Assembly: GCF_006345805.1 (NCBI RefSeq)
Contig: NC_043000.1
Location: 154,938,001 to 155,002,000 of the forward strand
Length of the DNA: 64,000 nt
Direction: 5' to 3'
Origin: Octopus sinensis
Taxonomy: Eukaryota
Every line of letters starts with the position of its first letter. Within the stretch, counting starts at the first letter, position 1. Shown here piece by piece: positions 30,109 to 58,833 of the stretch. The position numbers and the translations under genes were made by a program. The notes beneath the pieces were generated by a model. The model worked only from the letters and a program-made list of their open reading frames with translations, was not told the DNA's origin and made no database searches.

Positions 30109-30526
30109 TTACTCTTTTACTCTTTTACTTGTTTCAGTCATTTGACTGCGGCCATGCTGGAGCACCGCCTTTGGTCGAGCAAATCGACCCCGGGACTTAT
30201 TCTTTGTAAGCCCAGTACTTATTCTATCGGTCGCTTTTGCCGAACCGCTAAGTAACGGGGTCGTAAACACACCAGCATCGGTTGTCAAGCGATGTTGGGA
30301 GGACAAATACAGACACACAAACACACACACATACACACACACACATATACATATACATACATACGACGGGCTTCTTTCAGTTTCCGTCTAGCAAATCCAC
30401 TCACAAGGCTTTGGTCGGCCCGAGGCTATAGTAGAAGACACTTGCCCAAGGTGCCACACAGTGGGACTGAACCCGGAACCATGTGGTTGGTAAACAAGCT
30501 ACTTACCACACAACCACTCCTGCGCC
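30109..30526 (-). mobile_element. Family A SINE, full length
   Basis: Reverse-complement match to 46945-47368. Confidence 0.95.
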
Positions 30527-33665: not shown

Positions 33666-34053
33666 CTCTTTTACTTGTTTCAGTCATTTGACTGCGGCCA
33701 TGCTGGAGCACCGCCTTTTAATCGAGCAACTCGACCCCGGGACTTATTCTTTTGTAAGCCCAGTACTTATTCTATCGGTCTATTTTGCCGAACCGCTAAG
33801 TAATGGGGACATAACACACCAGCATCGGTTGTCAAGAAATGCTAGGGGACAAACACAGACACACAAACACACACACGCATATATATATATATACATATAT
33901 ACGACGGGCTTCTTTCAGTTTCCGTCTACCAAATCCACTCACAAGGCTTTGGTCGGCCCGAGGCTATAGAAGAAGACACTTGCCCAAGGTGCCACACAGT
34001 GGGACTGAACCCGGAACCATGTGGTTGGTAGACAAGCTACTTACCACACAGCC
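33666..34053 (-). mobile_element. Family A SINE
   Basis: Close match to 30109-30526. Confidence 0.95.
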
Positions 34054-34652
34054 AGACGCTTGGAATACATCTCTTCTGTGGCTGTTAATGAAACCAAACA
34101 GACCCGACAGTAAACTGAACACTGTATAATAAGTTTTCCAGAATACATCACACATAACACACAATCATGATGTCCAATCTGATCTAATATAAAACAAAAG
34201 TCGAGCAGATCGAAGAGGTAAAAACAGACTATTCTCGTACGTTAGATTGGTTACTCCAGTCATTAATTCAAGTACAGTTGACTGAGCCTACCCAACAATA
34301 GTAATTTACGATAATTATTTTAAAATACTATTTCTTGATATTTAGGCATTAAATTTAATTGAAGATCAATTACATGCCAGAGTCATCCTCAAGAATAGAA
34401 CGTACCAGTAATCAAGTATCCAGTAGCTTAGTAATACTGCAGTATCGAACATATCAAAGTTAATGACTTCTTAATTAGACACGGACGTTGAGGCAGTCAT
34501 TCTTACCATTAAGACAGTGTTGTTGTTACAGTGAAGGTATTTCTATCAGGAATCAAAACCTACTTTCAAGTCAACATTTTCCCAAGAGTTCTCGTTTTGA
34601 TCTGACACACTCCAATCGGCAAAGGAATGAAAAAGATTTCTTATCTCTCTTT

Positions 34653-35021
34653 TATTCTCTTTTACTTGTTTTTTCAGTCATTTGACTACGGCAATGCTGG
34701 AGCACCGTATTTAGTCGAGCAAATCGACCCCAGGACCTATTCTTTGTAAGCCTAGTACTTATTCTATCGGTGTCTTTTGCCGAACCGCTAATTACGGAGA
34801 CGTAAACACACCAGCATCGGTTGTCAAGCGATGTTGGGGGGACAAGCATATACACATATATACGACGGACTCCTTTTCAATTTCCGTCTACCAAATCCAC
34901 TCACAAGGTTATGGTCGTCCCGGGGCTATAGTAGAAGACACTTGGCCGAGGTGCCACGCAGTGGGACTGAAACCCGGAACTATGTGGTTGGTAAGCAAGC
35001 TACTTACCACACAGCCACTCC
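34653..35021 (-). mobile_element. Family A SINE
   Basis: Close match to 30109-30526 with a short internal microsatellite. Confidence 0.94.
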
Positions 35022-35360
35022 TAGAAAAATAAAACATGATATAGACCTCTTTCTCGCTCTCTCTCTCTCTCTCCATATATAATATATATATATATATATA
35101 TACTAATATCAAAACAATACTCTGTAAAAGTTTGATGCGTTTTTAATTCCGAGTTACAAAGATATACATGTAGAAAAGCATGTATAGAATCTTCTATCCT
35201 ATAATGAAACACGTTTAACATGTAATCAAAAATACAACAAATGCTATGTATACCTCATTTAAAATAAAACATGTATATACATACATTTGATAACTGTGAA
35301 CGTGCAAATGTATGTCATGAGAACACTGTATAGATTAGAATCCCTTCTGTATATATATAT

Positions 35361-35790
35361 AAATAAATGAAAGAATGGAGTTGAACGACGAATTAACAAA
35401 ATTCCTTTATTTTATTTTCGACATATGTTTCGAAGGCTGCATATTTCTAATTTCGAAGGAATAAGGGGTGCATTATGCCGCCTTCTCATCAGGAAAAGTA
35501 AGGAACTTATGTCAGCATCAAGATGCACAAAATTTTTTAGATGCACAAAAAATTAGGAATATGCAGCCTTCGAAACATATGTCGAAAATAAAATAAAGGA
35601 ATTTTGTTAATTCGTCGTTCAACTCCATTCTTTCATTTATTTGTATTAACACACAAATTTCCACACGATAGCACGTGATCTCTGCCCTAGGCATGTAGCT
35701 TCAACCGTGTTTTTTCTGACGTGAATTTGCTACCCAGGTATCGGTTAACCGAATTATCCATAATAAGATAATTCATTCAACTACTCAATT
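35361..35790. mobile_element. Penelope-like fragment with a 93-bp inverted repeat (35361-35453 / 35550-35642)
   Basis: Arms are reverse complements with one mismatch; (TA)n on both sides; contains a hammerhead. Confidence 0.8.
35415..35497 (-). ncRNA. Type I hammerhead ribozyme, canonical core
   Basis: TTTTC-CTGATGA-GAAGGCGGCATA-(30 nt)-TATGCAGCCTTC-GAAAC-ATAT-GTC-GAAAA. Stem I 5 bp, stem II 11/12 bp, palindromic CATATG stem III, GUC site (cut between 35420 and 35419). Confidence 0.85.
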
Positions 35791-35829
35791 ATTTATATAT
35801 GTATATATATACACACATACATACATACA

Positions 35830-57786: not shown

Positions 57787-58833
57787 AATCTCCTTTTCTT
57801 ATCTCGTATTCTGTTACTAGTGTTGTAAACATCAATCACTCTCTCATGCGCAGTGTATGCGTTTTGCTTGTTCGCCGGCTCGCTGCCGAGTAACGCCTAG
57901 GAGACGACTTTCTCATTATGATGGGTGTTAAAAACACCTGGAAGTCAAAGACAGGCGAGACAACTTGCCTCCGATTCCATTCAGGAATGATGGATACTGA
58001 TATTTCACCATTTTTGTGGCTTATCAACATCAAACACCTGAACCGAACCAGGGACGAATTGAATCGCCTGTAATTATATAAATTGTGTAAAACTCATTTG
58101 CTGGTATGCCACGGCGATGCAAACGTAAGATTAAATAATATCGGATACAAACGCAGAAACACAAAAATAATTTACACACATGGAGGACATGAGTTTACAC
58201 ATATACTCATATTAATATATAAACGCAAAATCTATTTTATTCATTTAATTCCTTCAGTCTCTCTCTCAAATGTTTCTTTCCTTCTCATACACAAATACGC
58301 ATACAAATAACTAGATATATTGATATGTAACAGCTTTTTTTTTTCAAGATAATCTTCACGAAACAAATCAGTTAAGTATTTAGTTTAAATGAAGTATCGA
58401 TTTGCTTCGTTTGGGTTTAAACTTCTTCTGACATTACAAAGCCAATGTTTAAATTAATGGGGATAGGGATAAGTGAATCGATTTGTCAGGCTTTTACAGA
58501 TGCTTATTTCATTTGACTCTAGAAATGGACAAAAGATAACCCCTCTTTGCGGTTTCACCTGAGAACCGAGAAGGTTAAAACAAAATGTGATAGATTTAGT
58601 TCAGCGCTGTGCTACCTCACTTAACTACTGCGCTACCTAGAAACGTTTACAACCCCTGTAGTCAATGGAGTGAGCATCTATGTGGTCGTTCGACCTGATA
58701 GAAGTAGTAGACAAATCTCACTCATATTACATCCCATAATCTTAAAAAGAAACAACACTTTAAACAAATGCAGTCTGAAAAAATTGACGGGATGGCTATG
58801 GTTCGAACTGCTTTTGGTCTTATATCTTCAGAA

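What the first reader, a model, noticed from the sequence alone, without database searches (positions are those of the whole stretch)
35361..35642. Canonical hammerhead overlapping one arm of a 93-bp near-perfect palindrome
Seen: a complete minus-strand hammerhead (35497-35415) with a long stem II and a CATATG palindromic stem III. Its 3' half lies in the left arm of the inverted repeat, so the right arm is an exact antisense to it. Known: inverted terminal-repeat arrangements are typical of Penelope insertions. Inference: a read-through transcript has two mutually exclusive folds, an active ribozyme or a 93-bp hairpin that masks it and is an ADAR/Dicer substrate.
Basis: partly seen in the sequence, partly recalled or inferred. 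Interest (0 to 1): 0.72.

Follow-up and report, generated by a model that had tools for sequence, protein, structure and literature searches.

The report
Two-armed Penelope retrotransposon insertion with hammerhead
The palindrome is two back-to-back fragments of the end of an abundant Penelope-type jumping gene that carries a hammerhead motif, and it is likely a scar of how that element copies itself into TA repeats, not an RNA switch.

Summary
In detail: a type I hammerhead motif (predicted cut 35420/35419) and 93-bp arms with one mismatch. But the unit is larger (about 35361-35792). It is one copy of a young, abundant Penelope-like retrotransposon family whose longer copies encode reverse transcriptase plus a C-terminal GIY-YIG endonuclease, most like the Hydra clade. 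The hammerhead is the ribozyme motif of its terminal repeat (pLTR). The palindrome is two 5'-truncated arms joined head-to-head in a TA microsatellite. One arm stops at a fixed short end; the other carries a 150-nt tail. All 45 of 45 two-armed insertions sampled pair one short with one long end. Neither arm type can be a copy of the other, which points to two priming events on element RNA. The switch idea is not supported: in a read-through RNA the hammerhead fold is predicted to lie 50 kcal/mol above the hairpin, and the masking arm is transcribed first. Inverted arms, a one-sided tail and the hammerhead are published Penelope features, and this scan noted the two-end rule in another family of this genome. 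New details: a long tail, and TA targeting without the Hydra linker cysteines.

The parts
35349..35360 (.). Left TA-microsatellite target remnant
   Evidence: Sequence. 120 of 127 family arm ends are followed by (TA)3 or more, versus 9% of random flank windows.
35361..35544 (-). Arm 1: 5'-truncated pLTR copy with the full hammerhead, ending at the fixed short 3' end (...CTTTCATTTAT)
   Evidence: 97-98% to family copies; spans -51 to +129/+131 relative to C3.
35415..35497 (-). Type I hammerhead motif: core CUGAUGA 35492-35486, GAAA 35431-35428, predicted cut 35420/35419; bulged stem I extension to about 35389/35519
   Evidence: Private G-to-A change at 35446 breaks one pair of the distal stem II hairpin.
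35421..35428 (-). Stem III palindrome ACAUAUGU: 2 bp as a monomer, 8-nt self-complementary for dimer formation
   Evidence: Cofold -7.0 kcal/mol. Same palindrome in 71 further genome hits with shorter stem II, versus 0 for the control pattern.
35545..35549 (.). Head-to-head junction filler: part of a 12-nt direct repeat AGATGCACAAAA (35521-35532 and 35539-35550), consistent with a template slip, with A-run microhomology to arm 2
   Evidence: Sequence; junction table; other copies continue differently at 35544 (loose ends).
35550..35642 (+). Arm 2, pLTR part (from +39): 3' half of the hammerhead and downstream pLTR
35643..35792 (+). Arm 2 tail (150 nt here, about 155 nt in other copies), ending at the fixed long end ...CTACTCAATTAT; in full-length copies this is the 5' leader between pLTR and ORF start
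   Evidence: L081, L086; L056.
35793..35810 (.). Right TA-rich target remnant
   Evidence: Sequence.

Best explanation
The locus is a short two-armed insertion of a Penelope-like retrotransposon (Hydra-like clade) into a TA microsatellite, and the palindrome likely arises because the element's enzyme primes reverse transcription from both nicked target strands, at two fixed sites on the element RNA. SHOWN: family identity; an RT + GIY-YIG ORF upstream of the pLTR in longer copies; full-length order pLTR(hammerhead) - tail - ORF; two fixed 3' ends about 155 nt apart; one of each in every two-armed insertion sampled; TA targets. INFERRED: the endonuclease nicks both strands of (TA)n. One 3'-OH primes at the short site and the other at the long site; both sites share CAWTTATTYRTAT, so the TA primer could anneal to UAU. 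The two cDNAs stop early and are joined at their 3' ends through microhomology or a few filler bases. The hammerhead is the element's own pLTR motif, probably active only as a dimer or with the element protein, and the templates were mostly uncut. At this locus it is a passenger, and any read-through RNA would be predicted to fold as the hairpin.
For: 45 of 45 head-to-head pairs among 127 distinct arms (72 long, 55 short) from 111 loci have one long and one short end; about 0.5^45 if partners were random. In 40 closely joined pairs the short arm reaches further 5' in 19, the long arm in 17, and they are equal in 4. Here the short arm reaches -51 and the long arm only +39, so neither can be a copy of the other. 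Arms of one insertion differ at 2.2% (104 of 4,715 sites, 28 pairs) versus 3.9% when partners are shuffled. Shared non-majority letters occur at 0.0066 per site versus 0.0010, maximum 0.0030 in 2,000 shuffles, as expected for one source transcript. 120 of 127 ends abut TA runs. Parent ORF: YRDD, FLDV, DKT; Pfam RVT_1 E 0.0035 and GIY-YIG E 7e-4, both below the curated cut-offs; 69 homologs at E<=1e-20; endonuclease dN/dS 0.06-0.37 in the 5 pairs computed. 99 of 127 arms span the cut site; only 2 of 66 less-biased 5' ends fall at it, p=0.2. Precedent: the Anolis PAc protein nicks and extends both strands and starts RT at two internal sites that define the tail (PMC11167929, parts 1-2 of 4 read).
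Against: No biochemistry was done. Frangieh et al. saw no difference in start site between the two strands, so PAc alone does not explain a strict one-long-one-short rule; they also found no primer homology, whereas TA/UAU microhomology is suggested here. Gene conversion between arms could also give the within-pair similarity. The loci are top-scoring, young copies, not a random sample. 37 of 127 arms had no partner within the pairing rule; one of them (L056) is the leader of a full-length copy, not an end. In 34 of 45 pairs the arms overlap, so a single RNA would need strand displacement; one versus two RNA molecules is not resolved. No copy with a fully intact ORF was found among those fetched (longest open stretch 645 aa).
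Confidence: 0.82

Rival explanations
1. Self-priming (fold-back): one cDNA, or an antisense template, folds back and copies itself to make the inverted arm, and the endonuclease then trims one end to remove the tail.
For: Proposed for head-to-head PLE structures with palindromic junctions in Adineta (PMC3846280, passages read); Craig et al. attribute the tail to endonuclease-mediated resolution (PMC8557442, passages). A few junctions here are near-symmetric (L100 -121/-121, L111 +5/+5, L023). Arms of one insertion are more alike than arms of different insertions.
Against: In 19 of 40 close pairs, including this locus, the short arm reaches further 5' while only the other arm has the tail. In 11 of 45 pairs the long arm barely overlaps or does not overlap the short arm. 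Copying one cDNA cannot give these without a second template.
Confidence: 0.12
2. Selected riboregulatory switch: the host keeps the palindrome to toggle between an active ribozyme and a masking hairpin.
For: The geometry is real: the right arm is antisense to the 3' half of the ribozyme.
Against: Predicted 50 kcal/mol gap, with the masking arm transcribed first. The same layout occurs in 24 of 45 sampled insertions. The locus carries a private stem II mismatch. The arms are about 1% apart, so it is young. I saw no recognisable host coding exon among the window's open frames of 90 aa or more, by eye only.
Confidence: 0.03
3. Assembly or library fold-back artefact.
For: No listed contig bridged the head-to-head junction at 35544/35550 in four DNA-type runs (the list was cut, and such repeats break contigs).
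Against: The arms are asymmetric (tail, one mismatch, filler bases). Both ends sit at biologically fixed sites next to TA runs, and 44 other loci show the same architecture with different junctions. Contigs from 3 studies join the unique left flank to the short end (35115 to 35375-35396; one may be the source sample).
Confidence: 0.03

Closest known systems
Hydra-clade C-terminal EN+ Penelope-like elements (Craig et al. 2021, PMC8557442; passages and supplement searches read)
   Same: Single ORF with RT and C-terminal GIY-YIG; DKT motif; CxxC and CxH around the conserved E/N; no CCHH seen; hammerhead in pLTR; (TA)n insertion; inverted 5'-truncated copy; tail at one end. The RT motifs resemble the Hydra sequences shown in the supplement, by eye.
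   Different: The linker has no CxC zinc knuckle (0 of 15 distinct in-frame linkers; also absent in sister family L175) and is Asn-rich instead, whereas 10 of 12 aligned homologs have it. RW is followed by L/F, not K. About 3.7 kb (estimate) versus generally under 3 kb. Tail about 155 nt versus 30-40 bp. It is not Hydra-1_Obim: the protein and hammerhead differ, and the supplement search found no SLKDIP or GAAACATATGTC.
PAc / Poseidon of Anolis carolinensis (Frangieh et al. 2024, PMC11167929; parts 1-2 of 4 read)
   Same: Two internal RT start sites downstream of the pLTR define the tail; both target strands nicked in AT-rich DNA; uncut RNA is the template; hammerhead needs protein in vitro.
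   Different: Different clade. In PAc the sites lie inside the ORF; here both lie in the 5' leader, about 155 nt apart. A strict pairing of one site per arm is not described in the parts read.
Metazoan PLE hammerheads with a small palindromic helix III (Cervera and de la Pena 2014, PMC4209133; parts 1-2 of 4 read)
   Same: Type I, G10.1-C11.1, long helix II, short palindromic helix III suited to dimers; pairs of motifs on opposite strands 100-700 bp apart already noted in Schistosoma.
   Different: Stem II here carries a 54-nt extension with an inner hairpin; stem I has a long bulged extension.
Adineta vaga Penelope elements (Arkhipova et al. 2013, PMC3846280; passages read)
   Same: Head-to-head inverted pLTRs, tail on one of them, Asn-rich inserts between RT and EN, Inr-like pLTR start.
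   Different: 31-bp tail and target-site duplications there; self-priming proposed, which the arm lengths here argue against.
L1 twin priming
   Same: Two primers from the two target strands give a head-to-head inversion joined by microhomology.
   Different: In L1 the second priming site is variable and the arms do not overlap; here both sites are fixed and 34 of 45 pairs overlap.

Membership tests
Type I hammerhead ribozyme | Core CUGANGA, GAAA and NUH with stems I, II and III | tested here: met
   stem III is 2 bp as a monomer.
Type I hammerhead ribozyme | Stem covariation across relatives | tested here: met
   Stem I 46 of 60 cells versus 26 in shuffles; stem II GAAGG/CCUUC versus GAAGA/UCUUC in a sister family.
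Type I hammerhead ribozyme | Active fold favoured in the isolated RNA | tested here: inconclusive
   The constrained fold is 3.8 kcal/mol above the MFE; the centroid keeps stem II and outer stem I but not inner stem I or stem III.
Type I hammerhead ribozyme | Self-cleavage | not testable with these tools
   Needs an in vitro assay.
EN+ Penelope-like element | ORF with RT and GIY-YIG endonuclease in the parent | tested here: met
   (Pfam hits below curated cut-offs; strong homology to 69 proteins).
EN+ Penelope-like element | pLTR with hammerhead upstream and downstream of the ORF | tested here: met
   L081 and L086: pLTR-tail-ORF; L052, L054, L057: ORF-pLTR-tail.
EN+ Penelope-like element | Inverted 5'-truncated copy and tail at one end | tested here: met
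   45 of 45 pairs.
Hydra clade | DKT motif, CxxC and CxH around E/N, no CCHH | tested here: met
   SDKT, CGVCNSE and CMH in the translations; absence of CCHH judged by eye in alignment A1.
Hydra clade | RWK motif | tested here: inconclusive
   RIRWL/RIRWF: RW kept, K not; some homologs have RWR.
Hydra clade | CxCX5C linker motif before the endonuclease | tested here: not met
   0 of 15 distinct linkers have CxC; present in 10 of 12 aligned homologs.
Hydra clade | Insertion into (TA)n | tested here: met
   120 of 127 ends.
Hydra clade | Phylogenetic placement with published Hydra RTs | not tested
   Published sequences were seen only as paper text; no tree was built, so I file it as Hydra-like rather than as a member.
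Non-LTR retrozyme | Non-coding head-to-tail tandem units, each with a hammerhead | tested here: not met
   The unit belongs to a coding element, and copies are solo or head-to-head; definition from bioRxiv 10.64898/2026.07.22.740005 (part 1 of 5 read).
Conformational RNA switch | Two folds of comparable energy | tested here: not met
   Predicted gap 50.3 kcal/mol.

The most novel reading that the evidence does not exclude
This Hydra-like family records a strictly asymmetric two-primer insertion: one half of the RT-endonuclease always starts at the pLTR end and the other always 155 nt downstream, each primed by a nicked TA strand annealing to a shared UAU-containing motif. Because the family has lost the zinc-knuckle linker that was linked to TA targeting, this primer-template pairing, not the linker, would be what selects TA repeats.
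Probability: 0.35. Interest if true: 0.62.

Novelty: new variant of a known kind. Interest (0 to 1): 0.36.

Why it matters
The locus itself is ordinary transposon debris. The family-level pattern matters more. How Penelope elements make inverted arms and one-sided tails is described as open in the papers read, and this family gives a clean genomic test: two fixed ends, always one per arm, with arm lengths that argue against simple fold-back. It also shows TA targeting without the linker cysteines that were associated with it. Many insertions are ready-made hairpins, which could feed RNA editing or small-RNA silencing if transcribed (untested).

Tried and rejected
Rfam scan of the window: no hammerhead model hit this locus at E<=1. 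Sequencing runs: no holder is on record as RNA. Four runs guessed to be RNA hold family pLTR and tail contigs, but these are contigs laid on another, older copy (L081), so they show neither expression of this locus nor editing; the A>G counts are confounded by subfamily differences. I suspected an intron in the tail (GT...CAG just before the ORF); no such joint was listed, so it is unsupported. Enrichment of 5' ends at the hammerhead cut: 2 of 66, p=0.2, not supported. 5' ends cluster at -81 to -69 (13 of 66 less-biased arms, p=2e-6 against a uniform null; only 3 ends in -140 to -82), but I could not tell a transcription start (Inr-like TCATTA, motif recalled) from an endonuclease or microhomology site (CATTATCGCTAT resembles the 3' end motif). 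dN/dS for the RT domain was not obtained because the script stopped. No empty-site allele appeared among the joints shown (list cut). Paper searches returned no paper describing this family or a strict one-long-one-short rule in the parts I read; most subscription journals, Repbase and Dfam were not searchable, and the bioRxiv supplements were not consulted.

Full report
Observation. The hammerhead motif and the 93-bp inverted repeat are at the stated coordinates, with one mismatch at 35446 and the predicted cut at 35420/35419. Stem I extends beyond the five pairs named, through a bulge. Stem III has two pairs as a monomer inside the 8-nt palindrome ACAUAUGU. Rfam does not detect the motif, probably because of the 54-nt stem II extension (inference).

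It is a repeat. A search of the window's own genome (2.72 Gb, animal; earlier scan notes call it octopus, not tested here) gave 2,194 first-look candidates, and the 40 scored were 97-98% identical apart from the window itself. The DNA beyond the right arm, 35643-35792, is also element sequence: 2,043 candidates, top hits 99%. Candidate counts are not copy numbers.

Parent element. [quoted passage not shown] Pfam hits were RVT_1 E 0.0035 and GIY-YIG E 7e-4, below the curated cut-offs, and 69 database proteins matched at E<=1e-20. Full-length copies read pLTR with hammerhead, then the tail, then about 50 nt, then the ATG (L081, L086, L056). Endonuclease dN/dS was 0.06-0.37 in the five pairs computed. 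No fully intact copy was among those fetched. DKT, CxxC/CxH around E/N, no CCHH and TA targeting match the Hydra clade as described in PMC8557442 (passages; supplement searches). The CxCX5C linker does not match: 0 of 15 distinct in-frame linkers have CxC, against 10 of the 12 homologs aligned out of 69. No tree was built, so I call it Hydra-like.

Why there is a palindrome. I mapped arms in 111 of the 153 loci then held; the short RT-centred loci L038-L049 and the older-subfamily loci L064-L093 were left out. This gave 127 distinct arms that end at one of two sites, +129/+138 (short, 55) or about +285 (long, 72) relative to C3. 45 head-to-head pairs were found, and all 45 join one short and one long arm; 37 arms were unpaired. 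The queries selected one arm per locus, not its partner. 120 of 127 ends run into TA repeats, versus 9% background. Both end sites share CAWTTATTYRTAT, and ends fall after either TAT. The window is a typical case: short arm 35544-35361, long arm 35550-35792, and a five-base filler explained by a 12-nt slip repeat.

Mechanism. Among 40 closely joined pairs the short arm reaches further 5' in 19, the long arm in 17, and they are equal in 4. A short arm cannot supply the tail, and a long arm cannot supply sequence it does not reach, so both arms were copied from a separate template. Arms of one insertion are closer to each other (2.2% over 4,715 sites in 28 pairs) than shuffled partners (3.9%) and share rare letters 6.6 times more often, with 0 of 2,000 shuffles reaching that level. 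This fits one source transcript, though gene conversion is not excluded. The simplest model is priming from both nicked target strands, one at each site, followed by end joining. PAc from Anolis nicks and extends both strands and starts at two internal sites (PMC11167929), but that paper saw no strand difference, so the strict pairing is not explained by it. Self-priming, proposed in PMC3846280 (passages), fits only the few symmetric junctions. One versus two RNA molecules is unresolved; 34 of 45 pairs overlap.

The hammerhead. Stems covary across families in this genome, so the motif is maintained at the element level. PLE hammerheads with a small palindromic helix III are reported to cleave weakly and as dimers (PMC4209133) or with protein help (PMC11167929). 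99 of 127 arms run through the cut site, and 5' ends are not enriched there, which agrees with uncut templates.

The switch idea. Alone, the hammerhead fold is 3.8 kcal/mol above the MFE; in the read-through RNA it is 50.3 kcal/mol above. The masking arm is transcribed first. 24 of 45 pairs have the same masking layout. There is no evidence that this locus is transcribed (searches are uninformative). An artefact is unlikely given the asymmetry, the fixed ends, the 44 like loci and the contigs across the left junction, though no listed contig bridged the central junction.

Novelty. The hammerhead in pLTRs, inverted truncated copies, one-sided tails and TA targeting are published. What this family adds is a tail of about 155 nt, a quantified 45 of 45 rule with an argument against fold-back in a coding family, and TA targeting without the linker cysteines. 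Verdict: real but ordinary at the locus; moderate interest at family level.

Noticed in passing
window 57975-58040, minus strand: A second type I hammerhead-like motif from a different, older repeat family (523 first-look candidates, 82-92% identical). Its core reads UUGAUAA, i.e. U3-A8 in place of C3-G8, in 6 of 6 aligned copies, with stems UGAUG/CAUCA, CCA/UGG and a 3-bp stem III. The U3-A8 variant was described in Schistosoma PLEs (PMC4209133). Weak Rfam HH9 hit, 27.3 bits.
   Followed up: partly
G000 pattern hits L154-L183: Several unrelated hammerhead families in this genome share the same stem III palindrome GAAACATATGTC with different stems I and II (71 hits versus 0 control), so heterodimers between families are conceivable.
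   Followed up: partly
family pLTR, -81 to -69 relative to C3 (just upstream of window 35544; not present in the window): 5' ends of arms cluster sharply at CATTATCGCTAT (13 of 66 less-biased arms): a candidate transcription start or endonuclease site.
   Followed up: partly
L005 1116-2152: Two family copies lie tail-to-tail in the same TA run, suggesting re-insertion into the target of an earlier copy.
   Followed up: no
window 30129-30516, 33751-34054, 34669-35025: Three copies of an abundant SINE-like repeat flank the locus on the left (very high depth).
   Followed up: no
P0046: A database protein named 'GATA zinc finger domain-containing protein 14-like' aligns with the RT of this family and appears to be a mis-named Penelope-like ORF.
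   Followed up: no
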